A DNA stretch of 38,192 bases from Patescibacteria group bacterium (GTDB lineage: Bacteria; Patescibacteriota; Gracilibacteria; Peribacterales; Peribacteraceae): NCBI GenBank assembly GCA_018818235.1, contig JAHISE010000074.1:1-38192 (forward strand). Direction: 5' to 3'. Each line of letters begins with the position of its first letter. Within the stretch, counting starts at the first letter, position 1. Of this stretch, positions 16,947-36,738 are shown piece by piece. Both the position numbers and the translations under genes were made by a program. The notes below the pieces were generated by a model. That model had not been told where the DNA came from. It searched no databases and was given only the letters and a program-made list of their open reading frames with translations.

Positions 16947-17444
16947 CTATGCCCCTCGTTTTTTGGTTGCTTCTATTCTGTTTCGTAACTGATTCAGAAA
17001 GGTAATGTGTTCACCAAATTCCCGTAGCAACGAAGAGAATTTTCTTTGGTTTGGAATTAGTAATCTGCAAAGCTTGTTATTTTTGACTAAATGGTCAATC
17101 AAACAATGAAAATCTCCATCACCGGAAACAATGATAGCTTTATTAAATTTGTTGTATTCAATCATCGTATGCAATACAAGCTCTGCATCCACATTACCTT
17201 TTGGTTTACCACTCTTTAAAATTAACGTTGGCTTAAATATTAATACATAACCAATACTTCTGAGATATTTGTACAAGCTTTCATTTGATTTGACATAACC
17301 AATAAATAATAATGCTTTGGTTATTCCATACTTATCAGACAAAAACTGTCTAAATCGCTCAAAATCAAGCTTCCAACCCTGATCCCGAATGGAGAGATTC
17401 AGATTTTGGCTATCTATAAATGCAAAATTATTAACCGGTTTCAT
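16947..17444 (-). CDS. NYN (LabA-like, PIN-related) domain protein, predicted RNase
   Basis: 'FAFIDSQNLN' (N-terminal Asp), 'NVDAELVL', 'IIVSGDGDF'. These three acidic motifs are typical of PF01936. Confidence 0.8.
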   Translation of the reverse strand: MKPVNNFAFIDSQNLNLSIRDQGWKLDFERFRQFLSDKYGITKALLFIGYVKSNESLYKYLRSIGYVLIFKPTLILKSGKPKGNVDAELVLHTMIEYNKFNKAIIVSGDGDFHCLIDHLVKNNKLCRLLIPNQRKFSSLLREFGEHITFLNQLRNRIEATKKRGA

Positions 17445-20731: not shown

Positions 20732-21739
20732 TTATTCATCGCCTGAACCTTCTCCTTCTTGCTCTTCATCTCTTTTCCTTAGAGCCTCCATAATTTCTTC
20801 ATTAGGTGCTCTTCCTGCAACTCCTGTGAAATCTTCAACTGTAATCCATCCATCTACGAAGAACTCAGGTTTCTCGATCTGTTCAAGAATGCCTGCGTGT
20901 TCATCTCTAGTTCCAAGATTTGCTTCCCAAGCAACCCATGCCAAATGATAGTTGCAGTTTAGAATACCACGCATGATATCCCTCTCATCTTTTTGATGTG
21001 CTTCACTTTCCAACATCTGCTCAAAATGAGTCTTAGCTCCAGCAATATCAAATCTGGCATCCCCTGCAGGATTATCCTGTGCCAACCACCAATAACTTTC
21101 TTCTTGGATTCTAAGCCCTTTTACCGGTTCACCTGCTCTTATCGCATCTTTTCCACTGTTATGCAGATATGTAGCACCTGCTTCGGTGTCTCCTTTTATT
21201 CTGAAAGCCTGTGCCAATTCGTATCCCGCAGAAGATCTTAATGAAAGTTTGTCTGCAAACTCTTCTATCATCATTGGCTTAAACTTTTTAATCGCTGCAT
21301 CCGGCATTCCATGTCTCCTTAAAAATTCGCCAATCTGCACACTGCACGCCAAAGCAAAATTTTCGTTCTCGCTTTTTTCTCCCCTCTTAATCAAATCCCA
21401 ATAAAAAGCTTGCCTGGACTCATCGGTTGTATATTGAAAATCGTGAAGATCACTTAGAATAATAGGAATATCTACTGCTTCCAAAGACGCAATTAAGCCA
21501 TTCAATGCTTCTTTTGCCCCCTCTGTATCATCAGTAGACTTTTTTTTATAATTATCTGCAACAACTCCCACTGTCTTTAAGTGCATTTGTTCTACTTGAC
21601 GGCTTAGACCAAGTATAACTCTTCTATATTGAGCCCCAAAATCCTGCACATTATAAAAAACCCATTTAGAATTTTTATTACTTAACCTTTGTAAAAAAGA
21701 CTCAATGTCTCTCGGAAAATCAATCTGTTGTTCTGACAT
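20732..21739 (-). CDS. Hypothetical acidic cytoplasmic protein (no recognisable domain)
   Basis: 335-aa ORF with an ATG start. It is the first gene of the minus-strand pse operon, divergent from an amidotransferase gene. It has an acidic tail 'RKRDEEQEGEGSGDE'. Confidence 0.6.
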   Translation of the reverse strand: MSEQQIDFPRDIESFLQRLSNKNSKWVFYNVQDFGAQYRRVILGLSRQVEQMHLKTVGVVADNYKKKSTDDTEGAKEALNGLIASLEAVDIPIILSDLHDFQYTTDESRQAFYWDLIKRGEKSENENFALACSVQIGEFLRRHGMPDAAIKKFKPMMIEEFADKLSLRSSAGYELAQAFRIKGDTEAGATYLHNSGKDAIRAGEPVKGLRIQEESYWWLAQDNPAGDARFDIAGAKTHFEQMLESEAHQKDERDIMRGILNCNYHLAWVAWEANLGTRDEHAGILEQIEKPEFFVDGWITVEDFTGVAGRAPNEEIMEALRKRDEEQEGEGSGDE

Positions 21740-21866: not shown

Positions 21867-23084
21867 ATGCCTAATAAAAACTGGATCAAATACTGTACCA
21901 AGTGCCTTATACCAGCCACCCGACCCGGCCAAACTTACGATGAAAAAGGGGTCTGTAATGCATGCAAAGAATTTGAATTCCGAAAGCAAGTCGACTGGGA
22001 AGCGCGTGACAGGGAACTTGACACTTTGCTTAACCAATACCGAAGAACAGACGGATATTACGACTGTATTGTCCCTGTAAGCGGAGGAAAGGACAGTACA
22101 TGTCAGGTAATAAAAATGTTGGAAAAGGGAATGCATCCGCTTTGTGTTTATGCAGCAGTAGATAAACCATCTGACATTGGGAAAAGGAACTTGGAAAATA
22201 TGCGACAACTCGGAGTTGATCTGGTTGAAGTAAGTACAAATCCAATTGCCAGAAATAAGATGGATAAAATCAGCCTTATGGAAATTGGTGATATTTCTTG
22301 GGCTGAGAATGTTGCTATATTCACAATCCCCGTTCGTATCGCAGTTCAAATGAAAATTCCTCTGCTTATTTGGGGAGAAAACCCACAAAATGAATTCGGA
22401 GGTCCAAAGGAGGCCACACATAATCATATTTTAGATAAAAGATGGCTGGAAGAATTCGGAGGACTTTTGGGGTTCGAGAATCATCATGTTGTCGGAAGGG
22501 AAGGAATTACCGAAAAAGATATGGTTCAGTTCAATTATCCTTCAGATGAAGAATTGAAAGTGGCAGGAGTTAAAGGAGTATTCCTTGGCTACTTTGTACC
22601 ATGGGACGGATACGCTCATGCGCTTCTGGCACAAGGATATGGTTTTGAAATGTGGCCAAAAAGTAACGAAGGAGCACTGGCAAACTACGAACATATGGAT
22701 AATCTTCATGCGGGGATACACGATTACTTTAAATTTATTAAGCTCGGATTCGGTCGTGCAACCGATCACGCTTCTTTGCATATTCGACGTGGAAGATTAA
22801 GCCGTAAGCATGGATTGGAAATTGTTAAGAGAAATGATGGTAAGTTCCCATGGACATATCTGGAAACCACACTTGAAGAAATTCTTGATGACATTGATAT
22901 GAGTTTTGAGGAATTTATGCAGACATGCGACAAGTTTACAAACAAGGATTTGTTCCTCACAGACGAAAACGGAGAATTGATAAGAGATAAGGGCTTTAAT
23001 CTTACGAAAATCAACTACGATAATGTAGATGAAGCACTTATGGAAGCAGTGGATAAACAAGAAGTAATGTCTGTTAATTATTAA
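21867..23084 (+). CDS. N-acetyl sugar amidotransferase, PP-loop ATPase (WbuX/WbpG/PseA type), paralog 1
   Basis: Zn-ribbon 'CTKCLIPATRP...GVCNAC', PP-loop 'PVSGGKDSTC', and 'IPLLIWGENPQNEFGG'. Confidence 0.85.
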   Translation: MPNKNWIKYCTKCLIPATRPGQTYDEKGVCNACKEFEFRKQVDWEARDRELDTLLNQYRRTDGYYDCIVPVSGGKDSTCQVIKMLEKGMHPLCVYAAVDKPSDIGKRNLENMRQLGVDLVEVSTNPIARNKMDKISLMEIGDISWAENVAIFTIPVRIAVQMKIPLLIWGENPQNEFGGPKEATHNHILDKRWLEEFGGLLGFENHHVVGREGITEKDMVQFNYPSDEELKVAGVKGVFLGYFVPWDGYAHALLAQGYGFEMWPKSNEGALANYEHMDNLHAGIHDYFKFIKLGFGRATDHASLHIRRGRLSRKHGLEIVKRNDGKFPWTYLETTLEEILDDIDMSFEEFMQTCDKFTNKDLFLTDENGELIRDKGFNLTKINYDNVDEALMEAVDKQEVMSVNY

Positions 23085-23839
23085 GCCCTTACATTAACTC
23101 CCCGATCCACCAGATATTTTCGCGTCTTTATGGGACTTTGATCTGTGAAATGAAAAATACTTGCGGCGCTAACTGCGGAAGCTCCCGCTTCTTCCATACC
23201 AAGCCTGAAGTCATCCAAAGTACCCACACCACCTGCCGTTATTACCGGAATATTAATTGCATCCACAACGGATTTTGTTAATTCAAGATCCAAACCCTTC
23301 ATTGTGCCATCCCTGTCAATCGACATAAGGAATATTTCCCCGGCACCTTTATTTGCAACCTCTTTAGCCCAAATAACCGGATCCTTGCCGGTTGCTTTTG
23401 TACCACCATGTGTAAACACTTCATAAGATCCGTCATCATGTTTAATATAATCAATTGACACAACTATCGTGGAGCATCCGAATTTTTCCGCCGCTTCTTT
23501 TATTAGCCCTTCAACCTCAATAGCGGCAGTATTGATGGCAATCTTGTCCGCCCCATCGCGCAACAGAGATTGAATATCTTCGATGGATCTTATCCCTCCC
23601 CCGATACAAAGTGGCATAAAACATTCCTCCGCCATTTGGGTCGCAATATCAAAAAGTATTTTGCGCCCTTCTTTGCTTGCGGAAATATCCAGCACAACAA
23701 GCTCATCTGCTCTCTGTGCATCATAAATCCGAGCAGCTGTAATCGGATGACCTGTATCCCTGTAATTTCCAAATTGAACCGACTTGACCATGCGGCCGTC
23801 TTTTAATAGTAACGATGGAATGATACGTTTTTTGAGCAT
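23081..23839 (-). CDS. hisF: Imidazole glycerol phosphate synthase cyclase subunit homolog (HisF-like; WbuZ-type partner of sugar amidotransferases)
   Basis: 'KRIIPSLLLKDGRMVKSVQF', 'GADKIAINTAA', 'ITAGGVGTLDD'. It sits in a glycan cluster next to a HisH homolog and WbuX-type genes. Confidence 0.9.
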   Translation of the reverse strand: MLKKRIIPSLLLKDGRMVKSVQFGNYRDTGHPITAARIYDAQRADELVVLDISASKEGRKILFDIATQMAEECFMPLCIGGGIRSIEDIQSLLRDGADKIAINTAAIEVEGLIKEAAEKFGCSTIVVSIDYIKHDDGSYEVFTHGGTKATGKDPVIWAKEVANKGAGEIFLMSIDRDGTMKGLDLELTKSVVDAINIPVITAGGVGTLDDFRLGMEEAGASAVSAASIFHFTDQSPIKTRKYLVDRGVNVRA

Positions 23840-23845
23840 ATAAAA

Positions 23846-24466
23846 TTAAGGATTCCATTCAATAAAATTTGCCAGCATCTTTAGTCCTTTCTGCTGACTT
23901 TTTTCCGGGTGGAACTGGGTTGCAAAAATATTCTCTTTAGATATACAAGCTGTAAATGGTACTCCATAGTCGCATGTTCCAAGGGGTAGAACCAAATCAT
24001 TAGGATTCACGTAGTAGCTATGCACAAAATAAAAATCTTCCTGATTTTTTAATCCGGATGTAATCGGATGGTTCCGAACGAAGTTCACCGTGTTCCATCC
24101 CATATGAGGAACTTTAAGCTTTTTCTCTGAGGGAAAATTAAATTTTCTAACATTTGCATCTATCCAATTCAAACCCTTGTGTGATCCGAATTCTTCGCTT
24201 TCCTTTGCAAGTAACTGCATCCCCAAACAAATACCCCAGAAAGGCTTCTTCTTTTTTAAAACTTCATCTTTCAGCAACTCAATCAATTTAAATTTTTTGA
24301 GGTTTTGCATACCGTCCCCAAAAGCTCCAACTCCCGGCAATATTATCCTATCGGCATTTTGAATTTCTTCGTGATTATTGGTTACAACCGTATCACCTCC
24401 AACACATTCCAATGCTTTTGCAATGGAACGAAGATTGCCAAGACCATAATCAACAATTGCAATCAT
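23846..24466 (-). CDS. hisH: Class I glutamine amidotransferase, HisH-like (WbuY-type)
   Basis: 'IAIVDYGLGNLRS', nucleophile 'GICLGMQLL', and 'FHPEKS'. The track start at 24487 is TTG, so I prefer the ATG at 24466. Confidence 0.9.
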   Translation of the reverse strand: MIAIVDYGLGNLRSIAKALECVGGDTVVTNNHEEIQNADRIILPGVGAFGDGMQNLKKFKLIELLKDEVLKKKKPFWGICLGMQLLAKESEEFGSHKGLNWIDANVRKFNFPSEKKLKVPHMGWNTVNFVRNHPITSGLKNQEDFYFVHSYYVNPNDLVLPLGTCDYGVPFTACISKENIFATQFHPEKSQQKGLKMLANFIEWNP

Positions 24467-24527
24467 AAATTTTGAAATCGGAATCAATGATACGGCTTAA
24501 TGCCTGAAAAGCCAGTAATCACAAAAA

Positions 24528-25739
24528 CTAATCCGTAATCCAATCTTTCTGATCAGGAAGCTGCTTTCCTCTTATAATACTCGAAGGATCATGTTTCCAC
24601 GGCGCAACTGTATGCCTAATCGCTATTTGATAGAATTCTTCCTCGGAAATTTTCAGCCAGTTTAAAAGCACATCCAGACTGGCGGGACGCAGACCTTCCC
24701 ATTCCTTTATCAATTCCATACCCCTCTCGCGAGTAAACCGACCGTTACGAATATCTATGGATGCCAAATGGCTCATTCTTCCCCATCCACGTTTAATAAA
24801 TTTAAGATAATCCTGTACACCTTGCATCATATCTTCTATTTTCTCGTAATCGTACTCGGGAGGAACACCTTCAACTCGATCTCCTTCCCAATCAATTTCA
24901 CGCTTAATTATCTCTACATGCCTTTTAACATCCCATGGAACAAAGCTTCCAAGACAAATCGATCTGCATTTAATGAACGCGAGTTCTTTGCGACTAGGAT
25001 AAATATAAGGCGCCATATCGCGCATTGTAACCGGATTATCGTCATCTGCTGTCGGAGATCCCGGCTCGTTAAGCATGCCAAACATGTCCTGAGCTGTTAT
25101 TCCCAGATTAACAAACATATTAAATCTGCGCTCATCAACTTCCTCAACGTCATCATAATCATAATAACTGGTGTACTCGGCGGAAGGCTCCCCCCATATT
25201 ACAAGAGGAATATTGTGCTTCACGGCAATCTGCATCGGATAAGCAAATATTCCGTTGTGCTGATACCAAAGAATATCTCCCTTTCGCTCCAACGAAATTC
25301 TCATTAACTTTTTAACCAAATTCCAGTCCGGCCTGTAGCCCAGATAATCGCAACCAAGTTTTCTAAGCAGCCTCTCTCGGTTCTCCACGACTTTAGGACG
25401 CAATAAATTGTGATCAAAACTGACTATGAGAGGTTTAAGCCCCCAGTCTTTGACTAAAGAATAAACCGTATAAGATGAATCTTTGCCCCCGCTGAACGGA
25501 ACAATACAATCGTATTCATGTTGACCGCGATACTGATCAAGCAGCTCTTCGAAATCTTTTTTCTTTTTGTCCCAATCTACATTTTGTTGTTTGAACTCAA
25601 TATTTTGGCATGTGGCACACACACCTTCATTATTAAATGATATTACCTCTTGCGTTTCCGGCATAACACAACGCGAACAGCGTTTGAGCTCCATAGGATC
25701 AGATATTGTTCTCTCTTTTTCAGTGACGGATGTTAACAT
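24528..25739 (-). CDS. N-acetyl sugar amidotransferase, PP-loop ATPase (WbuX/PseA type), paralog 2
   Basis: 'CSRCVMPETQ...GVCATC', 'PFSGGKDSSY', 'IPLVIWGEPSAEY'. Confidence 0.85.
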   Translation of the reverse strand: MLTSVTEKERTISDPMELKRCSRCVMPETQEVISFNNEGVCATCQNIEFKQQNVDWDKKKKDFEELLDQYRGQHEYDCIVPFSGGKDSSYTVYSLVKDWGLKPLIVSFDHNLLRPKVVENRERLLRKLGCDYLGYRPDWNLVKKLMRISLERKGDILWYQHNGIFAYPMQIAVKHNIPLVIWGEPSAEYTSYYDYDDVEEVDERRFNMFVNLGITAQDMFGMLNEPGSPTADDDNPVTMRDMAPYIYPSRKELAFIKCRSICLGSFVPWDVKRHVEIIKREIDWEGDRVEGVPPEYDYEKIEDMMQGVQDYLKFIKRGWGRMSHLASIDIRNGRFTRERGMELIKEWEGLRPASLDVLLNWLKISEEEFYQIAIRHTVAPWKHDPSSIIRGKQLPDQKDWITD

Positions 25740-28495: not shown

Positions 28496-30316
28496 TCAGT
28501 CAAAACGCTGCTGCTCCCACAACTCAAAGAACACCCCCTTCTTCTCCAACAACTCATCAAGCCCTCCTTGCTCAACCACTTTGCCTTTTTCCAAAACAAT
28601 AATCTTGTCCGCGTGCTTAATGGTAGAAAGACGATGTGCAATTACAATCGCAGTTCGATCTTTTACAGCTTCGTCGATTGCTTCCTGAATCATTCTCTCC
28701 GTCAGAGTGTCGAGTGAGCTTGTTGCCTCATCCAGAACAAGTATTTCTGAACCTTTAAGCAGTGCACGTGCAATAGAAACTCTTTGTTTTTCTCCTCCGG
28801 AAAGTTTTACGCCTCTATCTCCTATGAGCATATCTATGCCCTGAGGACTTTGCGAAACAAACTCGGACAATCTTGCCTGCTGAATTACTTTTTTGATGTC
28901 TTCATCCGAAACTTTGTCCAAACCGTATGCAATGTTATTCCTGAGAGTATCATGCAGGAGCAAAGTTTCCTGACTTACCAACGCAATGTTGCTGAGCAGT
29001 GACTCAAGTTTAAATTCACGTATGTCCGTGTCATCGATAAACAAGGAGTCGGGAGCGCAATCATAATAACGCATCAATAAACTGACGATTGTTGTTTTTC
29101 CGGATCCTGTTGGCCCGACTATTGCGGTAACTTTTCCTTTTTCGAATTCAATTGAGAGATTTTCCAAAACCTTCCTGCTTTCGGGATATGAAAAATCAAG
29201 ATTCCTGAACTCAATTTGATTATTTATTCCCGTGAATTCCTTATTACCTCCTTTTACAAAGTGTTTCTCGTTGTCTTCGAACACTTCCAAAACTTCATCC
29301 AATGGTCCCGTAGCTTTTGCCAAAGAATTTCGTAAACTGGCAACTACTCCGAACTTATTCGCAGCATTGTACATAAGATAAAAATAAACCAGAAAAGCCG
29401 GTGCGCTCCCTGATTGATCATGCACATGCAAAAACATCATTGCAGCGAATAACAATAGCAATGCGAAAAGCAATATCACTTCGTGGGTCGGATTTATCAT
29501 GTGCTGGAAAACCTCGGATTTAAAATCCAACTTTGATTTCTGGTCACTAATATTGCTGTAACGTTCTTTTTCATAACTTTCTGTTTTATAGGCTTTGACC
29601 AATGCGATTGTTGATAGAATCTCAACTGATTTCTTACCCAGCGCCCCTCCGCGTTCCGCAATTTGGTGTGACATTGTCCTTATCTTTCTGACTATTATCT
29701 TGATAGAAAAATGAAGAACTACAAACAGAGGTAGAATAAACAATGTAAGCTTCCACGAAATCATTGCCATTATTATCATATAAACGAGAAGCGACATTAG
29801 AGCACCAAAATGTTTGCTAACTTCGTAGACAGGCTGGAATGCAAGACCTGTGAATTCGGAAAGTACAATACTTAGTCTCCCAACACTTGAACGATCAAAA
29901 TATAGTTTTCCGAAGCTTACATATCTTGTAAAAATTTGTTTTCGCAGATGATGAATCGCCCGATAAGTAAAAAATGACATGCAAAGCATCGAGCAATATT
30001 TGATTATGTTCTTAAGTAAGAATGCGACTACGAATATTCCGAGCAATACTCCAAACAATGCCTTGTCACTTACAAGTATGGTTGGGGGGAGCATGTTGAT
30101 CGCATCCCCAAGATAAGGAAGCTCTTTTATAAAGCTAAAGTCACGCTCCAGAAAACCATTGAGCAAAGGAATCAAAAGCCCCATTCCCACACCCTCAAAT
30201 GCAGCTGCCAATGCAGCCAACGAAAAGGGTAATAACAGATACGCAGGATGAATGTTTATCCCATTTAGAAGACGAATGATTTTGCCTACGTTATCGAACT
30301 CCCGAGTCTTGGACAT
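28496..30316 (-). CDS. ABC exporter, fused transmembrane + ATP-binding domains (MsbA/type I exporter-like)
   Basis: Six predicted TM helices at the N-terminus, Walker A 'GPTGSGKTT', signature 'LSGGEKQRVSIARAL', Walker B 'ILVLDEATS', and an H-loop 'IAHRLST'. Confidence 0.9.
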   Translation of the reverse strand: MSKTREFDNVGKIIRLLNGINIHPAYLLLPFSLAALAAAFEGVGMGLLIPLLNGFLERDFSFIKELPYLGDAINMLPPTILVSDKALFGVLLGIFVVAFLLKNIIKYCSMLCMSFFTYRAIHHLRKQIFTRYVSFGKLYFDRSSVGRLSIVLSEFTGLAFQPVYEVSKHFGALMSLLVYMIIMAMISWKLTLFILPLFVVLHFSIKIIVRKIRTMSHQIAERGGALGKKSVEILSTIALVKAYKTESYEKERYSNISDQKSKLDFKSEVFQHMINPTHEVILLFALLLLFAAMMFLHVHDQSGSAPAFLVYFYLMYNAANKFGVVASLRNSLAKATGPLDEVLEVFEDNEKHFVKGGNKEFTGINNQIEFRNLDFSYPESRKVLENLSIEFEKGKVTAIVGPTGSGKTTIVSLLMRYYDCAPDSLFIDDTDIREFKLESLLSNIALVSQETLLLHDTLRNNIAYGLDKVSDEDIKKVIQQARLSEFVSQSPQGIDMLIGDRGVKLSGGEKQRVSIARALLKGSEILVLDEATSSLDTLTERMIQEAIDEAVKDRTAIVIAHRLSTIKHADKIIVLEKGKVVEQGGLDELLEKKGVFFELWEQQRFD

Positions 30317-30468: not shown

Positions 30469-32070
30469 TCACCTTACCAAATGTAATAAATATCTAATCA
30501 CCGGACTCACTTCAACCCCCTTCGATTTCACTGGCTCCAAAACTACAACTCTCGGCAACCTCCTCCTAATTTGAACATTTGTTTCCTTTGGATACCCAAC
30601 AACATGAGTTACACCGTAATGATCAAATGCTTCTTTGAGTTTTCCGCTCTCAATAATTCTATCCACAGTTTCTAGGTGGAAATATATTTTTTCTCCTTCC
30701 CAGAAATAAAAGTAATCACGATAGGCAATCGGGAATGCAACGACTGAGTCTTCGGGTAACGCATTTAATTGTTCCGCTGCAGCATAAGACATGGGGACTG
30801 TTGAGCGTGCATACAGTTTTGCAAAGTTTCCTCTGTTTGCCTGTACTAATTGCGCCGAAGCAATCAGAACTATTACAAATATCATTTTGTTTGTTGATAT
30901 TTTTGGATGATGTTCGGCCAAAACTTTTCCTATACCTGCTATTCCAACGCCTGCAAGTAATGCGAAAACGAAATGATAGTTCATTAAGTGACTTCGCTGA
31001 TAATGGAATCCAAATCTGACGATAAGTTCATTAGTAAACCAAATACCGAGTATAAAAATCAGAAGTTTTCTATTCTTGCGCCAAAGAATGAGTATTCCCG
31101 GAATGATAAACAGCCACAAGAATGCTCCCCCCATTTCCTCCTGCATAAATAGTGTTGGAAGCCTATTAACAAACAACCAAGCTCCATCTAATACAGATTC
31201 AATCGGAGAAAGCTCATCAACACCAAATACGAACCTATAATGCGTATTCTGAATTTGCTCCAGTTTTGACGCTCCTTCGTGCTTTTCTGTGGATATCTGA
31301 TCATAAAGATCTTTTTCGAACTCGTAAGTCCAGCGATCCGGATAATAATGTGACCATCCCGGTTCACGTGGTTCCAAAATCTTTAGTATCTGATCTGTGC
31401 GCTGCGAAAGTGATTGATTCGGCTTTAGTGAGGCGGCGATAAAGGGTGACGAGAATATTATTCCCGAACAAAATATAAATATTACTCCATTAATAAATGC
31501 ACCTTTCCATTTCTTTCTTTCTGTCCACAAATAAAAGATGAACATCCACGGAAGAAAAAGAATAAACACGTCACGGAACACCATCGCTCCTCCAAATAAA
31601 AGACCGGCGATGATTAATATTGAAGTTTTTCTTTTATTATAAAAACAAATTAATGCAAGTGAGCTCAGAAACACAAACAAGTACCCAACCGAGTATCCAT
31701 CAGGTCGCAGAGCTGTTAACCATGTTAATGGCATTAGTGCGAAAAGTGTTGTTGATCCCCAGGCAACTTTTGCATCGAAAAGTTTTCTGCAAAGTATCCA
31801 CCATGGGATCAGAGCAAGTGCGAGGATTATTGAACCTGTAAACGACCAACCAATTGAGTTGTTCCATCCTACAAGAGGACTAAGAACTGAAATTAAAACA
31901 GGCATGAGTCTGTGACTGTCAATGACAAGACCTCCTCCAGATGCAAACTGTTTTGCATGATCAAGGAATATGAGTCTCCATGGATATCCTGCCATTATTA
32001 CAGGAAGCATCCATAAACTTATTAAAGCTGCTGCAAAGACTATTAGCCAAATAAATTGATTCCTTTTCAT
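30469..32070 (-). CDS. Polytopic membrane protein, possible GT-C fold glycosyltransferase (ArnT/PMT-like) or polymerase/ligase, with C-terminal soluble domain
   Basis: There are about 11-13 hydrophobic helices, a large loop (residues ~215-300) and a ~110-aa C-terminal non-membrane domain. I could not verify a diagnostic motif by eye, so the call is topology and context only. Confidence 0.45.
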   Translation of the reverse strand: MKRNQFIWLIVFAAALISLWMLPVIMAGYPWRLIFLDHAKQFASGGGLVIDSHRLMPVLISVLSPLVGWNNSIGWSFTGSIILALALIPWWILCRKLFDAKVAWGSTTLFALMPLTWLTALRPDGYSVGYLFVFLSSLALICFYNKRKTSILIIAGLLFGGAMVFRDVFILFLPWMFIFYLWTERKKWKGAFINGVIFIFCSGIIFSSPFIAASLKPNQSLSQRTDQILKILEPREPGWSHYYPDRWTYEFEKDLYDQISTEKHEGASKLEQIQNTHYRFVFGVDELSPIESVLDGAWLFVNRLPTLFMQEEMGGAFLWLFIIPGILILWRKNRKLLIFILGIWFTNELIVRFGFHYQRSHLMNYHFVFALLAGVGIAGIGKVLAEHHPKISTNKMIFVIVLIASAQLVQANRGNFAKLYARSTVPMSYAAAEQLNALPEDSVVAFPIAYRDYFYFWEGEKIYFHLETVDRIIESGKLKEAFDHYGVTHVVGYPKETNVQIRRRLPRVVVLEPVKSKGVEVSPVIRYLLHLVR

Positions 32071-32091: not shown

Positions 32092-32625
32092 TCAGACTTT
32101 AATTAAGCATCCTTCTTTCTTTATTGGCATCTCTTTTGGCTTTCCTTTGCAAATCTCAAATCCTCGCAAATATGAAATCAACTGAGCACGCCCCTCTTCT
32201 ATCAAAGATATATCGTTATCAATAATCAAATCTGGACTTGCCGGAGGTTCATATGGCCGATCTACTTCTTCCAAGCCTTCACGTTTTACATAAACCCACT
32301 TAGGATCACAAATGGATTCAAGTTCATTGCGAACTTTCTCGAACGGAGCAATTACAGCAACTATCACCAGGAATCCGTGAGCCGAAAGAAGATCCGCAAG
32401 TCGTGCAACTCTCAGATTGTGCCTTCGACGATCCTCGGGTTCAAAACCTTCATCAACCGAAACTGTCGCACGCATTTCATCCCCATCCAGAACCAAAACC
32501 CTGCGTGACAATACGGAAGATCCATCAATGTCTTTATTAAAATAATCACGCACACCAAATGCCAGAGTGGTTTTCCCCGCTCCGGAGTTTCCTGTAAGCC
32601 AAATAACCGGAAAACGATTTTTCAC
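32092..32625 (-). CDS. Adenylylsulfate (APS) kinase family P-loop kinase (CysC-like; substrate uncertain)
   Basis: 'VIWLTGNSGAGKTTLA' (P-loop), 'VLDGDEMR', and 'DRRRHNLRVARLADLL' (the DRxENIRR region). The position equivalent to the CysC 'ISP' serine reads 'IAP'. The GTG start overlaps the upstream stop (GTGA). Confidence 0.8.
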   Translation of the reverse strand: MKNRFPVIWLTGNSGAGKTTLAFGVRDYFNKDIDGSSVLSRRVLVLDGDEMRATVSVDEGFEPEDRRRHNLRVARLADLLSAHGFLVIVAVIAPFEKVRNELESICDPKWVYVKREGLEEVDRPYEPPASPDLIIDNDISLIEEGRAQLISYLRGFEICKGKPKEMPIKKEGCLIKV

Positions 32626-32999
32626 TGCTCAAGTGGGTGAGGATTTTCTTTGTACTCTTTACCTGCATTTGCATAAAGCTCTTTTCTTAAATCAGTTGCT
32701 GATATTTTTTCCGTTTTGTCATCCAGTTGAATGAGTTCGTAACCAACATCTCTTCCTATATACACGCTTAGTTTTGAATCTGGATCATCAACCCGCATGA
32801 TTTGTACTTTTGATTCATCGGGAAATGCAACTCGGATCATTGCTTTGCATTTTTCAAATTCAAATGGATTTTTGTCCGACCTATCTGTATCACGCGAAAG
32901 CACTATGCACTTGTCACAATCTTCAAGAATTTTTTCTATGCATCTTTTGTGCCCATCATGGAAGGGTTGGAAGCGGCCGACGAAAATGCCTGTTTTCAT
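32622..32999 (-). CDS. Small HxGH-type nucleotidyltransferase (cytidylyltransferase-like fold; NMNAT/TagD-size, 125 aa)
   Basis: 'GIFVGRFQPFHDGHKRCIEKIL' carries the (H/T)xGH motif in the GRFQPxHxGH form. The C-terminal 'ISATDLRK' resembles the ISSTxxR motif. It appears translationally coupled to the APS-kinase-like gene. Confidence 0.7.
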   Translation of the reverse strand: MKTGIFVGRFQPFHDGHKRCIEKILEDCDKCIVLSRDTDRSDKNPFEFEKCKAMIRVAFPDESKVQIMRVDDPDSKLSVYIGRDVGYELIQLDDKTEKISATDLRKELYANAGKEYKENPHPLEQ

Positions 33000-33109
33000 T
33001 ATGTGAGAATTAAAACTGTTTGAGGTAGGGATTGCAAGAGGGAAATTGATTTCGCTATCCTACCTTGTACCCCCATCCCCCTGTCCCCCTTCCCCCTCCA
33101 CCCCACTGA

Positions 33110-33133
33110 CCACGGCAATCATGATTGCCGTGG
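33110..33133. repeat. Perfect 24-nt palindrome ccacggcaatca|tgattgccgtgg
   Basis: All 12 base pairs were checked position by position. It lies in the divergent intergenic region between the 32999 (-) and 33314 (+) starts. Confidence 0.95.
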
Positions 33134-33213
33134 CTGACCTGCAGGGGAAAGTGGGAACCCCGCTAACAGAGAAACAAACTCAATTCGAGTAAGCCCCTTC
33201 CCCCTGTGGGCAA

Positions 33214-33239
33214 GCCACGTCAGTCGTGACTGACGTGGC
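33214..33239. repeat. 26-nt palindrome gccacgtcagtc-gt-gactgacgtggc (12-bp arms)
   Basis: Checked position by position. It shares CCACG/CGTGG termini and a TGAC/GTCA core with the 33110 palindrome. Confidence 0.95.
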
Positions 33240-33313
33240 AAGCGGAGTGGAGGGGGAAGGGGTTTGGGGATGGGGGTCTTTCTCTACCAACAACTTCCCC
33301 CTACAATCTCGTT

Positions 33314-34189
33314 ATGCCTCCAAACAAAAAACTTTGGCTCCACCTCCTAAAACTTATAGGAGTTGGGCTGTTTGTGTGGATAATACGGGAAATAGACCTT
33401 GCCAGACTTCTTGAAGAAATAAGAAAAGCTGACCTGACGCTGTTCACTTTATCCTTTATAACAGGCTTTATTGCAATCTTCGTCAAAGCTGTAAGATGGC
33501 ACATAATTGTAAAAAAGGCGGGCTTGAGTCCAAGTATGTGGGAATCCTGGAAGCTATATAATATTGGATTTGCTCTCGCTGTAATTACTCCCGCCAAACT
33601 GGGAGAACTTGGAAGAGCAGCTTATCTAAAGAAAGATGGCATGAATGGGATCACTGCTATTGGCATTAACATTATTGATCGTTTGGCAGATGTAGTGACC
33701 ACTTTGTCATTCATACTCGCAGCAATTTGGTTACTTTTTGGATTTTCGATTTTTTTGTATGCATTATTAGCGCTTGTTGTTATTTCAATTTTAATATTTG
33801 TAATTTTCAAAAAAACAATATTGTCTAAGGCTATCAATTATTTTCTTCCTTTCGTTAAACACGTACTAACTTCTTCACTTATTATAAAGGCACTCGGAAT
33901 TACATTTATTTATTGGATTGCATTCTTCACATGGGCAATTTTGATTGCACAAAGCGTTGGAATCGATATACCAATAATTACAATTGGTGCAATCCTCACA
34001 ATCGCAAGTTCTATAGCTGTCCTCCCCATAGCTCCATCAGGTTTGGGGACAAGAGACGCGGCATTGATCGCACTATTAGCTCCATTTGGAATACAAAGTG
34101 AACAAGCTGTTGCAATGGCATTGTTGATGTTTGCGAGTATTGTGATTTCGAGTTTGTATGGGGCGGGGTTGTGGGTTACAAGTAAATGA
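33314..34189 (+). CDS. Flippase-like / lysylphosphatidylglycerol-synthase TM-region family membrane protein (UPF0104)
   Basis: Eight or so TM helices. The N-terminus 'KLIGVGLFVWIIREIDL' and 'ITPAKLGELGRAAYLKK' are typical of the family. Confidence 0.65.
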   Translation: MPPNKKLWLHLLKLIGVGLFVWIIREIDLARLLEEIRKADLTLFTLSFITGFIAIFVKAVRWHIIVKKAGLSPSMWESWKLYNIGFALAVITPAKLGELGRAAYLKKDGMNGITAIGINIIDRLADVVTTLSFILAAIWLLFGFSIFLYALLALVVISILIFVIFKKTILSKAINYFLPFVKHVLTSSLIIKALGITFIYWIAFFTWAILIAQSVGIDIPIITIGAILTIASSIAVLPIAPSGLGTRDAALIALLAPFGIQSEQAVAMALLMFASIVISSLYGAGLWVTSK

Positions 34190-34192
34190 ATA

Positions 34193-34784
34193 GACCTCAC
34201 TCTCTTCCCTCTAACCGACCTCACCCCCGGTCCCTCTCCACTCCGCTCCGCTTGCCCACTGTGGAGAGGGGAGCTCTGCTCATATTTTATTATGATTTAT
34301 GAAGTTAAATATCATTTCCAAAACCTCTGGTAATGATTCATGCACTTTGTCATTTGTAATTCTAAGTATCTTATAATCCCTTTCTATAAAATATTTATCT
34401 CTTATATCATCGTGTTCTTTTTGTTCTGCTTTTTCATGGATTTTTCCATCTATCTCTATTATTACTCTTTGCTCTCTGCAAATAAAATCTGCAATGTATG
34501 GCCCAACATTAACCTGTCTGCAAAACTTTAGTCCTCTGCATCTTCTATTGCGTAATACTCTCCATAATATTGCCTCTTCATGAGTCATTGATCTCCTTAG
34601 TTTCTTTGTAAACCTGCTTTTATTCTTCTTATATAGTGCTTCTTTGATTTCTTCATCCATAGGATTGCAGATCCTACACAAACAGCAAACAACATACAAC
34701 AAACAAAACAGCTCCCCTCTCCTCCTCAGAGGAGAGGGGCCGGGGGTGAGGTCGATTGTGGGCCGGGGTGAGGTCGGTTAAGGC
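34193..34784. mobile_element. DUF559 endonuclease cassette bounded by ~75-90 nt imperfect terminal inverted repeats (MITE-like/selfish cassette candidate)
   Basis: The reverse complement of the left flank 34193-34279 is 'agctcccctctccac..gtggagagggaccgggggtgaggtcggtta...gtgaggtc'. It matches the right flank 34711-34784 'gctcccctctcctc..gaggagaggggccgggggtgaggtcg...ggggtgaggtcggtta'. Each flank contains its own 10-11 bp hairpin. Confidence 0.5.
34280..34660 (-). CDS. DUF559 (Vsr/restriction-endonuclease-like fold) domain protein
   Basis: 'LRRSMTHEEAILWRVLRNRRCRGLKFCRQVNVGPYIADFICREQRVIIEIDGKIHE...RDKYFIERDYKILRITN' is the canonical DUF559 pattern. The track start at 34702 is a TTG in A/C-rich low-complexity DNA. 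The first ATG is at 34660. Confidence 0.85.
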   Translation of the reverse strand: MDEEIKEALYKKNKSRFTKKLRRSMTHEEAILWRVLRNRRCRGLKFCRQVNVGPYIADFICREQRVIIEIDGKIHEKAEQKEHDDIRDKYFIERDYKILRITNDKVHESLPEVLEMIFNFINHNKI

Positions 34785-35541: not shown

Positions 35542-36738
35542 ATGCCAACCTCAAAAATCTACTCACACAACTTCGGCCCGGATTTTACAAAGCGAAATTT
35601 TAAAAGATGTACCAAATGTATTATGCCGGATACAAAACCAGGAGGCTCTTTTGACGCAAATGGAGTTTGTAATGCGTGCCTTAATAATGATGCAAAGAAG
35701 AACATTGATTGGAATCAAAGAATACAGGCACTAAGAGATTTAGCCGAAGAAGCAAAAAGAAAGAAATCAACAGGATACAATTGTTTGATTCCGGTTAGTG
35801 GTGGAAAAGACAGTACCTATCTGGCAGTTACCGCAAGAGATACTCTGGGACTAAATCCCCTATGTGTATTTGTAGAGCCTTGTTACATTGCAGAAAGAGG
35901 AGACAAAAATGCAAAGAACCTTTCCAAGCTTGGATTTGATATTTTCAGATTCAATCCAAGCCAAAAGATAATGCCGGGATTACTGAAGAGAAGTTTTATT
36001 GAGGACGGACAACCTGTCCGAGCATTTGAGTTTATGCTTTATTCCGTTCCTATGCGTGTTGCGATTAACTACGGTATTCCTTTGGGTATATGGGGAGAAA
36101 ACGCAGCAGTTGAATATGGGAATCTTGGAAATACGGATGCGGAAGATCAAAAGAACTGTCCTGCATTGGAGGGTAGGGATGCATCGCACTGGGTTGGAAA
36201 CGGAGTAACAGAAAGAGAACTAACGGCATTCCAACATCCAACTGCGGAAGAGTTCAGACAATCCGGTATGCGTGTTGTATACATGAGTGATTATGTTTTT
36301 TGGGACAGCCGAATGACAGCAGAGTTCGCAATCAAGAGAGGCCTAGCCGTTAGAACTCCTGATGAGATTAAAGGAACTGGAGGCTACTGGGACTTTGAGC
36401 AATTGGATGACGAAATGCCGATAATCAGTCACCTGCTTAAGTACATCAAGTTCGGTTACGGCCGTGCAACGGATCAGGCTTGCAGAGATATCCGCAACGG
36501 TCACATTACAAGAGAAGAAGGGCTTGCTCTTGCAGACGAATTCGACGGACAGATTAATCCCGAGTACATCAGACGTTACTGTGATTACATTGGTATAACA
36601 GTTGAAGAGTTCTGGAAGATTGCAGAGAGTTTTAGGCCAAAGGAGACTGTAGCTCCATCTCCAATGTCACAACCTGCTCCTGTTCAACAGCAATCGCCAA
36701 CAATGTATCAGGCGAGTCCGGCTACTTCGATTGTTTAA
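35542..36738 (+). CDS. N-acetyl sugar amidotransferase, PP-loop ATPase (WbuX/PseA type), paralog 3, with P/Q/S-rich C-terminal tail
   Basis: 'CTKCIMPDTKP...GVCNAC', 'PVSGGKDSTY', 'IPLGIWGENAAVEYG'. The tail is 'KETVAPSPMSQPAPVQQQSPTMYQASPATSIV'. Confidence 0.85.
   Translation: MPTSKIYSHNFGPDFTKRNFKRCTKCIMPDTKPGGSFDANGVCNACLNNDAKKNIDWNQRIQALRDLAEEAKRKKSTGYNCLIPVSGGKDSTYLAVTARDTLGLNPLCVFVEPCYIAERGDKNAKNLSKLGFDIFRFNPSQKIMPGLLKRSFIEDGQPVRAFEFMLYSVPMRVAINYGIPLGIWGENAAVEYGNLGNTDAEDQKNCPALEGRDASHWVGNGVTERELTAFQHPTAEEFRQSGMRVVYMSDYVFWDSRMTAEFAIKRGLAVRTPDEIKGTGGYWDFEQLDDEMPIISHLLKYIKFGYGRATDQACRDIRNGHITREEGLALADEFDGQINPEYIRRYCDYIGITVEEFWKIAESFRPKETVAPSPMSQPAPVQQQSPTMYQASPATSIV

What the first reader, a model, noticed from the sequence alone, without database searches (positions are those of the whole stretch)
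32092..32999. Translationally coupled mini-nucleotidyltransferase + APS-kinase-like pair: candidate route to a 3'-phospho-nucleotide-activated decoration donor
A 125-aa HxGH nucleotidyltransferase ('GRFQPFHDGH') overlaps (GTGA) a 177-aa APS-kinase-family protein with intact P-loop, 'LDGDEMR' and 'DR..N.R' motifs. No ATP sulfurylase (CysDN or Sat) and no sulfotransferase is visible in the window. APS-kinase homologs phosphorylate the 3'-OH of a nucleoside-diphospho-X compound. One example is APS to PAPS. Another is Campylobacter jejuni Cj1415, which converts cytidine diphosphoramidate to its 3'-phosphate for O-methyl-phosphoramidate capsule decoration. The pair here could make NMP-X (NTase) and then 3'-phospho-NMP-X (kinase) as the donor for a non-carbohydrate substituent such as sulfate, phosphoramidate or another phospho-linked group. 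The NTase fold differs from both known systems, so this would be a distinct pathway. The kinase also has Ala where E. coli CysC has the 'ISP' serine.
Basis: partly seen in the sequence, partly recalled or inferred. Interest (0 to 1): 0.7.

Follow-up and report, generated by a model that had tools for sequence, protein, structure and literature searches.

The report
Mini sulfate-activating enzyme pair (PAPS)
A tiny 125-residue nucleotidyltransferase, always coupled or fused to a divergent APS kinase and often next to sulfotransferase genes, probably replaces ATP sulfurylase, so the two small genes would make the universal sulfate donor PAPS.

Summary
Two minus-strand ORFs, a 125-aa HxGH nucleotidyltransferase (32622-32999) and a 177-aa APS-kinase-like protein (32092-32625), overlap by GTGA inside a Peregrinibacteria (CPR) surface-glycan cluster.

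The kinase is a divergent APS kinase by sequence and by predicted fold. It has a shortened lid and Ala in place of the 'ISP' serine.

The NTase derives from NadM-type NMN adenylyltransferases. It has lost every NMN-binding element and gained two invariant arginines (R36, and R83 in GRxVGY).

- In all 38 species-level relatives where it can be checked, the NTase is followed by or fused to the kinase.
- Among 148 family representatives, at least 54 are NTase/kinase fusions, in both domain orders. These include cultured haloarchaea and an alphaproteobacterium.
- Sulfotransferase genes lie within 10 kb in 20 of 39 Peregrinibacteria loci, against 0 of 39 control loci, and next to the fusion in the other two lineages.
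- CysQ-like and DHH phosphoesterases also associate with the pair.
- No Sat or CysDN gene occurs in 0.95 Mb of flanks.

Best reading: a minimal two-gene PAPS synthase whose NTase is an unrecognised class of sulfate adenylyltransferase. This rests on inference from context and has not been shown biochemically. The window itself holds no recognisable sulfotransferase.

The parts
32622..32999 (-). Mini HxGH nucleotidyltransferase (125 aa), proposed sulfate adenylyltransferase. ATP-site motifs are G8-R9-F-Q-P-F-H14-x-G-H17 and I99-S-A-T102-x-x-R105. Family-specific invariants are R36 and G82-R83-x-V-G-Y87.
32092..32625 (-). Divergent APS kinase (177 aa) with a short lid. It has the P-loop G12-N-S-G-A-G-K18-T, L46-D-G-D49-E-M-R52, F61, D65-R66, N70 and I92-A93-P-F.
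32622..32625 (-). GTGA overlap: the kinase GTG start overlaps the NTase TGA stop (translational coupling).
   Evidence: The same 4-bp, 1-bp or near-zero junction, or a fusion, is seen in relatives.
30469..32070 (-). 533-aa membrane GT-C / PMT_2-like glycosyltransferase, starting 21 bp downstream of the kinase on the same strand. It is probably in the same transcription unit. A role in sulfation is not shown.
   Evidence: Syntenic with L009 (47% identity). No promoter or terminator pattern in the gap.
28496..30316 (-). 606-aa ABC exporter (transmembrane plus ATPase domains), same strand, in synteny with L009. This is context rather than a proven part of the system.

Best explanation
The pair is a minimal two-gene PAPS synthase.

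Step 1 (inferred): the 125-aa NTase uses the HxGH/ISxT ATP site it inherited from NadM-type NMN adenylyltransferases to transfer AMP from ATP onto sulfate, giving APS and PPi. The NMN-binding elements are deleted. Two new invariant arginines (R36, R83) are proposed to hold the small anion.

Step 2 (well supported by homology): the APS-kinase homolog phosphorylates the 3'-OH of APS to give PAPS. Tight translational coupling or fusion lets the kinase pull the thermodynamically unfavourable first step, as in known bifunctional PAPS synthases.

PAPS then feeds sulfotransferases that sulfate surface glycans. PAP is recycled by CysQ-like or DHH-type phosphatases where these are present. In this window's organism the sulfotransferase must lie outside the 38 kb, or be one of the unassigned ORFs.
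For: **Kinase is an APS kinase**
- Profile hits to solved APS kinases (8a8h 3.7e-26).
- The 50 best structural neighbours of the AF2 model (pLDDT 86) are all APS kinases or APS-kinase domains of PAPS synthases / ATP sulfurylases, with query TM 0.67-0.76.
- The P-loop, LDGD, R52, F61, D65-R66 and N70 are conserved.

**NTase and kinase are linked**
- In the 38 Peregrinibacteria species representatives whose contig continues past the NTase, the kinase follows on the same strand or is fused. About 30 junctions are -8 to +5 nt.
- Among the 148 best family representatives, 35 are kinase-NTase fusions and 19 are NTase-kinase fusions.
- The fusion occurs in many cultured haloarchaea and in a Micropepsaceae alphaproteobacterium (L046).

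**Link to sulfation**
- A sulfotransferase-like gene lies in 20 of 39 species-representative loci, and is the immediate neighbour in 14. It lies in 0 of 39 NMNAT control loci.
- The close syntenic relative L009 has the order sulfotransferase, NTase, kinase, GT-C, ABC exporter.
- L086 has a CysQ-like gene, then NTase, kinase and sulfotransferase.
- A 407-aa sulfotransferase-like gene (weak or faint Pfam Sulfotransfer_1/3 matches) sits just upstream of the fusion in 3 of 3 haloarchaeal genomes, directly adjacent in two and one gene away in the third.
- L046 has a Sulfotransfer_3 gene 6 kb away.
- An NTase-DHHA1 fusion exists (P0300).

**No other sulfurylase nearby**
- No Sat motifs and no CysD/CysN in 58 loci totalling 0.95 Mb.

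**NTase is not an NMNAT**
- It lacks the Trp helix, 10 residues after strand beta-4 and the C-terminal tail.
- G36 is changed to R, and GRxVGY is invariant across 140 diverse members.
- Separate full-length NadM NMNATs exist in the phylum.

**Chemistry**
- Canonical ATP sulfurylase also uses an HxGH motif (PMC11697783).

**Accessory, not housekeeping**
- The annotation table of the complete Ca. Peribacter riflensis genome lists no pair, no cysC and no sulfotransferase.
Against: - Nothing in sequence or fold ties the NTase specifically to ATP sulfurylase. The best matches are NMNAT and PPAT, over the N-terminal 75-80 residues only.
- The C-terminal 45 residues are modelled with low confidence, and a profile of that half finds nothing in the PDB.
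- The one Pfam ATP-sulfurylase hit (P0353, 23.8 bits) is below the gathering score.
- Sulfate binding is pure inference.
- The window has no recognisable sulfotransferase or PAP phosphatase.
- Three of nine kinase-centred contexts (L005, L092, L093) have kinase plus sulfotransferase but no NTase within 5-10 kb. APS can therefore come from elsewhere in some genomes.
- Whole-genome absence of Sat or CysDN in genomes with the pair could not be tested.
- The kinase lacks about 16 lid residues, including the second adenine-stacking Phe, and has Ala for the ISP Ser. Its substrate could therefore differ from APS.
Confidence: 0.6

Rival explanations
1. The pair makes a 3'-phospho-nucleoside-diphospho-X donor other than PAPS. 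X could be phosphoramidate, another oxyanion or a phospho-compound, by analogy with Campylobacter Cj1416/Cj1415. Sulfotransferase-fold enzymes or other transferases would then pass X on.
For: - The kinase is a divergent subfamily with a shortened lid and Ser changed to Ala, below the TIGR00455 cut-off.
- The NTase's acceptor pocket is unknown.
- The window has no sulfotransferase.
- There is precedent for an APS-kinase homolog acting on CDP-phosphoramidate (PMC11800397).
Against: - The recurrent neighbours belong to three Pfam sulfotransferase families and keep PAPS-binding motifs. CysQ-type phosphatases also recur.
- The phosphosulfate-contacting residues of APS kinase are conserved.
- No glutamine-kinase, Cj1417 or Cj1416-type genes are in the window or its relatives.
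- The ATP site is of the NadM type, which uses ATP rather than CTP (knowledge of the family).
Confidence: 0.12
2. Only the kinase works in sulfation. APS comes from a canonical sulfurylase elsewhere in the genome. The NTase has another role: regulatory, a structural 'lid' partner for the kinase, or adenylylation of an unrelated substrate.
For: - The kinase occurs with a sulfotransferase but without an adjacent NTase in L005, L092 and L093.
- There is no specific similarity of the NTase to Sat.
- Whole genomes could not be inspected.
Against: - The NTase never occurs without the kinase (38 of 38 loci), and the two are fused in both orders in at least 54 cluster representatives.
- All catalytic ATP-site residues are invariant across 140 members, which argues for an active enzyme.
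- No Sat or CysDN lies in any flank, although these genes normally sit next to cysC.
Confidence: 0.17
3. A NadR-like NAD salvage module (NMN adenylyltransferase plus ribosylnicotinamide kinase), or a CoA-type module (PPAT plus dephospho-CoA kinase).
For: - The best sequence and structure matches of the NTase are NadM/NadR NMNAT and PPAT.
- Both known modules pair an HxGH NTase with a P-loop kinase.
- The source of NAD in Peribacteria is reported as unclear (PMC4736985).
Against: - The NMN-binding Trp helix and the tail are deleted.
- TIGR01527 scores 41 bits against a cut-off of 181.
- Separate genuine NMNATs exist in the phylum.
- The kinase's sequence and fold neighbours are exclusively APS kinases.
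- The gene neighbours are sulfotransferases and glycan genes.
- The pair is absent from the complete Ca. P. riflensis genome, so it is not housekeeping.
Confidence: 0.04

Closest known systems
Bifunctional PAPS synthases (ATP sulfurylase plus APS kinase; human PAPSS1/2, Aquifex aeolicus 2gks, the fungal ATPS-APSK-like fusion)
   Same: - Two consecutive steps held together by fusion or coupling.
- Both domain orders occur in nature.
- Step 1 is done by an HxGH nucleotidyl-transfer domain.
- Step 2 is done by an APS-kinase fold.
- The product serves sulfotransferases.
   Different: - The step-1 module here is 110-125 aa and derives from NadM-type NMNAT.
- It lacks the QxRNPxHxxH and GRDHAG motifs and the PUA-like N-domain of Sat-type enzymes, and it gives no Pfam PF01747 match.
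- The kinase lacks about 16 lid residues.
CysDN-CysC / NodPQ / RaxPQ sulfate-activation systems that feed bacterial sulfotransferases
   Same: Dedicated PAPS supply encoded beside sulfotransferase genes, for sulfation of surface or secreted molecules.
   Different: CysD is a PP-loop ATP pyrophosphatase driven by the GTPase CysN. No homolog of either is present in 0.95 Mb of flanks.
NadM-type (archaeal) NMN adenylyltransferase (MJ0541 1f9a, 1ej2, 2qjo)
   Same: GRFQPFHxGH, NPF and ISATxxR motifs. The N-terminal 75-80 residues superpose at 1.5-1.9 Å.
   Different: - Lacks the Trp-containing NMN-binding helix, the segment after strand beta-4 and the C-terminal helical tail.
- G changed to R at position 36, and the GRxVGY motif is new.
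- Always partnered with an APS kinase.
Campylobacter jejuni MeOPN donor pathway (Cj1416 cytidylyltransferase plus Cj1415 CDP-amidate 3'-kinase)
   Same: The same logic: an NTase forms NDP-X, and an APS-kinase homolog then adds the 3'-phosphate (PMC11800397).
   Different: - The NTase fold and nucleotide differ.
- Cj1417 and Cj1418 equivalents are absent.
- The neighbours here are sulfotransferases and CysQ-like phosphatases.

Membership tests
APS kinase (Pfam PF01583 / TIGR00455 CysC) | Significant match to the family model | tested here: met
   Pfam 83 bits against a gathering score of 21.1, over residues 7-107 only. PDB profile hits to APS kinases down to 3.7e-26.
APS kinase (Pfam PF01583 / TIGR00455 CysC) | Reaches NCBIfam equivalog cut-offs (is an orthodox CysC) | tested here: not met
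   TIGR00455 90.3 bits against 138.7; NF002059 84 bits against 244. 28% identity to E. coli CysC.
APS kinase (Pfam PF01583 / TIGR00455 CysC) | P-loop, LDGD Mg/3'-OH motif, and the Arg/Phe/Asp-Arg/Asn residues that contact APS | tested here: met
   GNSGAGKT, LDGDEMR52, F61, D65-R66 and N70 are invariant or nearly so in 24 family members, and align to 8a8h and 2yvu. The ligand contacts themselves are taken from knowledge of published APS-kinase structures.
APS kinase (Pfam PF01583 / TIGR00455 CysC) | Mobile lid (KGLYKKAR...GFTG) and the ISP serine | tested here: not met
   The lid is about 16 residues shorter (gap in the alignment to 8a8h). IAPF, with invariant Ala93.
APS kinase (Pfam PF01583 / TIGR00455 CysC) | APS-kinase three-dimensional fold | tested here: met
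   AF2 pLDDT 85.8. The top 50 Foldseek PDB matches are all APS kinases or APS-kinase domains, with TM 0.67-0.76.
Sat-type ATP sulfurylase (Pfam PF01747) | Match to the family model; QxRNPxHxxH and GRDHAG motifs | tested here: not met
   - No PF01747 hit for the window protein, and no ATP sulfurylase among PDB sequence or fold hits.
- The motifs here read GRFQPFHDGH and GRDVGY.
- One family member (P0353) hits PF01747 at 23.8 bits, below the gathering score of 24.3.
Sat-type ATP sulfurylase (Pfam PF01747) | HxGH nucleotidyl-transfer motif with a downstream ISxT..R motif (shared superfamily chemistry) | tested here: met
   H14-D-G-H17 and I99-S-A-T-D-L-R105 are invariant across 140 members. HNGH is essential in human PAPSS (PMC11697783).
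Sat-type ATP sulfurylase (Pfam PF01747) | Catalyses ATP + sulfate -> APS + PPi | not testable with these tools
   Needs an enzyme assay or genetic complementation.
NadM-type NMN adenylyltransferase (TIGR01527) | Reaches the family cut-off; has the NMN-binding Trp helix and the C-terminal tail | tested here: not met
   41.2 bits against 181.2. Three deletions relative to NMNATs from the same phylum and from archaea. Paralogous true NMNATs are present (L049, L053, L073).
Campylobacter MeOPN donor pathway (Cj1415-Cj1418) | Glutamine kinase, phosphoglutamine hydrolase and a GT-A-fold cytidylyltransferase beside the kinase | tested here: not met
   - No such Pfam families beside the pair in the window or in about 50 related loci.
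- The only GATase in the window pairs with a HisF-like cyclase and WbuX.
- The Cj1415 sequence itself was not available for a tree.
PAPS-dependent sulfation module (activation + sulfotransferase + PAP phosphatase) | Sulfotransferase and PAP phosphatase genes associated with the activating genes | tested here: inconclusive
   Met in relatives: 20 of 39 loci hold a sulfotransferase; CysQ-like genes occur in L005, L086 and L092; haloarchaea and L046 also qualify. Not met in the window itself.

The most novel reading that the evidence does not exclude
The NTase-kinase module does not make PAPS. It makes a different 3'-phosphorylated adenylyl-X donor, for example an adenylyl-phosphoramidate, another oxyanion or a phospho-linked group. 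The associated sulfotransferase-fold enzymes would then transfer X, giving an undescribed class of glycan decoration in CPR bacteria and haloarchaea.
Probability: 0.1. Interest if true: 0.9.

Novelty: new variant of a known kind. Interest (0 to 1): 0.72.

Why it matters
Sulfate activation (EC 2.7.7.4) is known from only two enzyme types: Sat and CysDN. A third type of about 115 residues, derived from an NAD-biosynthesis enzyme, would have several consequences.

- It would explain how genome-reduced CPR bacteria, and possibly many haloarchaea, supply PAPS for sulfated surface glycans.
- It would correct the annotation of a widespread protein family. Several hundred 50%-identity cluster representatives match the family profile at E <= 1e-10, although some of these are NMNATs. 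They are now labelled only 'adenylyl-sulfate kinase' or 'cytidylyltransferase family protein'.
- It would give metabolic reconstructions a marker for sulfation capacity.
- It would offer a very compact PAPS-generating module of about 285 aa when fused, useful for biocatalytic sulfation.

Because the fusion occurs in cultured haloarchaea, the hypothesis can be tested directly.

Tried and rejected
1. **NMNAT/NadR-like or PPAT/DPCK-like module: rejected.** The NMN-binding elements are lost, true NMNAT paralogs exist, and the kinase is an APS kinase by sequence and fold.
2. **MeOPN-like pathway: no support.** No Cj1416-1418-type genes were found.
3. **CysD-like role for the three SGGKDS PP-loop ORFs in the window: rejected.** They are TIGR03573 WbuX amidotransferases.
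4. **Search for a sulfotransferase in the window: nothing found.** Tried tblastn with nine sulfotransferases from relatives, PAPS-motif regular expressions, and Pfam at E <= 10 on unassigned ORFs.
5. **Specific similarity of the NTase to ATP sulfurylase: none found.** Tried a PDB profile search of the full length and of the C-terminal half, and Foldseek.
6. **Literature.** Seven full-text searches found no description of this family, nor of sulfation in Peregrinibacteria.
7. **Genome-wide absence of Sat or CysDN in carriers: could not be tested.** Only 10 kb flanks are accessible. An attempt to find an NTase elsewhere in the genome of L093 by way of P0123 led to a different assembly.
8. **Rfam on the whole window:** no hits.
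Full report
**1. What is in the sequence**

On the minus strand, a 125-aa ORF (32622-32999; MKTGIFVGRFQPFHDGH...) ends in a TGA that overlaps the GTG start of a 177-aa ORF (32092-32625). The overlap reads GTGA.
- The first ORF matches Pfam CTP_transf_like over residues 5-66 only (1.4e-8). In NCBIfam its best matches are NMN adenylyltransferase models, far below their cut-offs.
- The second ORF matches Pfam APS_kinase (3e-23) but not NCBIfam's CysC equivalog cut-off (90 bits against 139).
- A GT-C/PMT_2-like membrane glycosyltransferase follows 21 bp downstream on the same strand, and then an ABC exporter.

The whole window is a surface-glycan cluster. It holds:
- a heptose pathway;
- nonulosonic-acid genes (a PseB-like enzyme, DegT, NeuB, a CMP-sugar synthetase);
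- three WbuX amidotransferases with a HisH/HisF-like pair;
- glycosyltransferases and methyltransferases.

No Sat, CysD/CysN or sulfotransferase is detectable in the 38 kb.

**2. Organism and conservation**

Homologs of both proteins come from Peregrinibacteria/Peribacteraceae, in the Candidate Phyla Radiation.

A scan of one genome per GTDB species with the NTase profile returned 39 Peregrinibacteria species with true orthologs at 53-78% identity. In all 38 whose contig continues past the NTase, the kinase follows on the same strand. About 30 junctions are -8 to +5 nt, and two are in-frame fusions. Three more assemblies behave the same way.

The reverse does not hold. Of nine kinase-centred look-ups, three (L005, L092, L093) show the kinase without an NTase within 5-10 kb. 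The NTase therefore depends on the kinase, and not the other way round. This is the pattern expected if the NTase's product has no use except as the kinase's substrate.

**3. The family is large and often fused**

A full HMMER scan of 1.84 billion cluster representatives with the NTase profile gave 616 hits at E <= 1e-10. Of the 148 best hits that were fetched, 35 are kinase-NTase fusions and 19 are NTase-kinase fusions.

One fusion cluster of 285-286 aa belongs to cultured haloarchaea, including Halalkalicoccus, Haloarcula, Halopelagius, Halorarum, Haloterrigena and Natronococcus. Every member is annotated simply 'adenylyl-sulfate kinase'. That labelling probably explains why JGI names some stand-alone NTases 'adenylylsulfate kinase'.

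A Micropepsaceae alphaproteobacterium carries a 258-aa kinase-NTase fusion (L046). Fusion in both domain orders and in three distant lineages is strong evidence that the two activities are consecutive.

**4. What the neighbours say**

Sulfotransferases are the recurrent non-housekeeping neighbours.
- A 200-250-aa family lies directly upstream of the pair in many loci. It carries the motifs HIPKTGGxW and FVRHPxxxYQS, and 11 of 16 members match Pfam Sulfotransfer_2 (best 3.5e-8).
- Other loci hold Sulfotransfer_1/3 proteins. In L009, the closest syntenic relative of the window, the order is sulfotransferase, NTase, kinase, GT-C, ABC exporter. L023, L025 and L011 also have one.
- L086 has a CysQ-like phosphatase, then NTase, kinase and sulfotransferase, inside a nonulosonic-acid/capsule cluster.

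In total, 20 of 39 species-representative loci contain a sulfotransferase-like gene, and in 14 it is the immediate neighbour. None of the 39 control loci that hold ordinary NadM NMNATs has one.

The association repeats outside the phylum.
- In three haloarchaeal genomes a 407-aa sulfotransferase-like gene (weak or faint Pfam Sulfotransfer_1/3 matches) sits just upstream of the fusion. It is directly adjacent in two and one gene away in the third.
- L046 has a Sulfotransfer_3 gene 6 kb away.
- One family member is fused to a DHHA1 domain. That phosphoesterase family includes PAP phosphatases and pyrophosphatases (the family's functions are from my own knowledge).

No Sat motif and no CysD or CysN homolog occurs anywhere in 58 loci totalling 0.95 Mb. 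In classical systems the sulfurylase normally sits beside cysC.

The pair is not housekeeping. The annotation table of the complete Ca. Peribacter riflensis genome lists no cysC, no sulfotransferase and no sulfurylase, and a ZIP transporter occupies the slot upstream of rplC (PMC4736985 supplement). About half of the relatives carry the pair in that slot.

**5. The kinase**

- A profile search of PDB sequences finds only APS kinases (8a8h 3.7e-26).
- The AF2 model has pLDDT 86 and pTM 0.81. Its 50 best structural neighbours are all APS kinases or APS-kinase domains.
- The P-loop, LDGD, R52, F61, D65-R66 and N70 are conserved. In solved APS kinases the corresponding residues contact Mg and the phosphosulfate and adenine of APS (the contacts are from my own knowledge).
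- Two features depart from the norm: the lid is about 16 residues shorter, and the ISP serine is an invariant Ala.

I read it as a real APS kinase of a distinct short-lid subfamily. The missing lid elements leave some doubt about its exact substrate, and may be supplied by the NTase partner. That last point is speculation.

**6. The NTase**

Its N-terminal 75-80 residues are NadM-type. They carry GRFQPFHxGH and NPF, and superpose on 2qjo and 2qjt at 1.5-1.9 Å.

Compared with genuine NMNATs, including paralogs from Peregrinibacteria themselves (L049, L053, L073), it lacks three elements:
- the 13-16-residue Trp helix, which stacks on nicotinamide (from my own knowledge);
- 10 residues after strand beta-4;
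- the C-terminal tail of about 40 residues.

Across 140 diverse members the ATP-site residues are invariant: G8, R9, H14, H17, S100, T102 and R105. Two family-specific arginines appear as well. R36 is Arg in 96% of members where 97% of NMNATs have Gly, and R83 lies in an invariant GRxVGY motif.

This describes an active adenylyltransferase that has discarded its large acceptor site and acquired extra positive charge, as would suit a small anion.

Canonical ATP sulfurylase uses the same HxGH chemistry (HNGH in human PAPSS; PMC11697783). Even so, I found no specific sequence or fold similarity to it, apart from one hit below threshold. The C-terminal 45 residues of the model are of low confidence.

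**7. Interpretation**

The best-supported mechanism is a minimal PAPS synthase. The NTase adenylylates sulfate to give APS. The coupled or fused kinase converts APS to PAPS, and in doing so pulls the unfavourable first step. Sulfotransferases use the PAPS on surface glycans, and CysQ-like or DHH enzymes recycle the PAP.

What is shown and what is inferred:
- Shown: the identity of the kinase family, the NTase-kinase linkage, the association with sulfotransferases, and the loss of NMNAT features.
- Inferred: that sulfate is the NTase's acceptor, and that no other sulfurylase exists in these genomes.

The rivals, with my estimates:
- a non-PAPS donor, about 0.1;
- an NTase with some other role, with APS made elsewhere, about 0.17;
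- an NAD- or CoA-type module, about 0.04.

**8. Novelty and verdict**

No paper in the searchable library describes this family or sulfation in Peregrinibacteria. Public annotation treats the fusion only as an APS kinase.

If the hypothesis is confirmed, this is a third and much the smallest class of sulfate adenylyltransferase. The pathway is known but a key enzyme has been replaced by a non-orthologous one, so I rate it a new variant of a known kind.

The claim that the fold differs from ATP sulfurylase is inaccurate at superfamily level. For this particular window, the link to decoration of the encoded glycan stays open, because no sulfotransferase was found in it.

Noticed in passing
window 33040-33320: GC-rich intergenic element (55% GC against about 40%) between the divergently transcribed NTase and a flippase-like gene.
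- It forms a long imperfect inverted repeat (69-nt arms, 78% complementary) with two perfect 12-nt internal palindromes.
- It holds four copies of a CCCCTTCCCCCT-like motif (0.05 expected by chance).
- It folds at -160 kcal/mol (z = -10) and has no Rfam match.
- It occupies the position where the close relative L009 has a sulfotransferase gene.
It may be a MITE-like or palindromic element.
   Followed up: partly
window 21867-23084 (+), 24528-25739 (-), 35542-36738 (+); 23081-24487 (-): Three paralogous WbuX-type N-acetyl sugar amidotransferases (TIGR03573, above 300 bits each), plus a HisH/HisF-like glutaminase/cyclase pair. This suggests multiple acetamidino modifications of the nonulosonic or amino sugars.
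   Followed up: partly
window 8208-9941 (+): A 577-aa fusion of an ATP-grasp ligase (ATPgrasp_Ter / ATP-grasp_3) with a C-terminal low-molecular-weight phosphatase / arsenate-reductase-type domain, inside the glycan cluster. Function unknown.
   Followed up: no
window 34280-34702 (-) and 16947-17444 (-): A DUF559 endonuclease-like gene and an NYN-domain nuclease gene embedded in the glycan cluster. The DUF559 gene, together with a flippase-like gene and a methyltransferase, lies where L009 has the sulfotransferase. This suggests local rearrangement.
   Followed up: no
L005 7195-9351; L092 3942-7372; L093 10001-13174: A sub-lineage of the same short-lid kinases has a CysQ-like phosphatase directly upstream of the kinase (overlapping it in L005), with a sulfotransferase nearby, and no NTase within 5-10 kb. 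L093 has kinase plus sulfotransferase only. The source of APS in these genomes is unknown.
   Followed up: partly
L092 8113-10850: A PEP-mutase/NTP_transf_3 fusion and a TPP-dependent decarboxylase, which are phosphonate biosynthesis genes, lie beside the CysQ-kinase-sulfotransferase genes of a Peregrinibacterium. The same surface polymers may therefore carry both phosphonate and sulfate.
   Followed up: no
L089 10880-11632; L090 10884-11630: In two of three haloarchaeal genomes a YqcI_YcgG-family protein follows the kinase-NTase fusion. In all three a conserved 407-aa protein with only faint sulfotransferase signatures precedes it. The substrate of this module is unknown.
   Followed up: no
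P0300 (432 aa), P0266 (395 aa), P0321/P0365 (about 330-370 aa): Other architectures of the mini-NTase family: NTase-DHHA1 phosphoesterase, DUF4118 membrane domain-kinase-NTase, and tandem NTase-NTase proteins.
   Followed up: partly
L001 8590-9702; L020 10917-12044: A conserved 370-aa protein (66% identity between two species) with no family match lies directly downstream of the kinase. A weakly similar acidic helical ORF is in the window at 20732-21739.
   Followed up: no
about half of loci L003-L045 (e.g. L003 8721 onward, L088 14364 onward): In about half of the Peregrinibacteria species the NTase-kinase pair, with its sulfotransferases and large multidomain glycosyltransferases, lies just upstream of the rplC ribosomal-protein operon. 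In Ca. P. riflensis that slot holds a ZIP transporter instead.
   Followed up: partly
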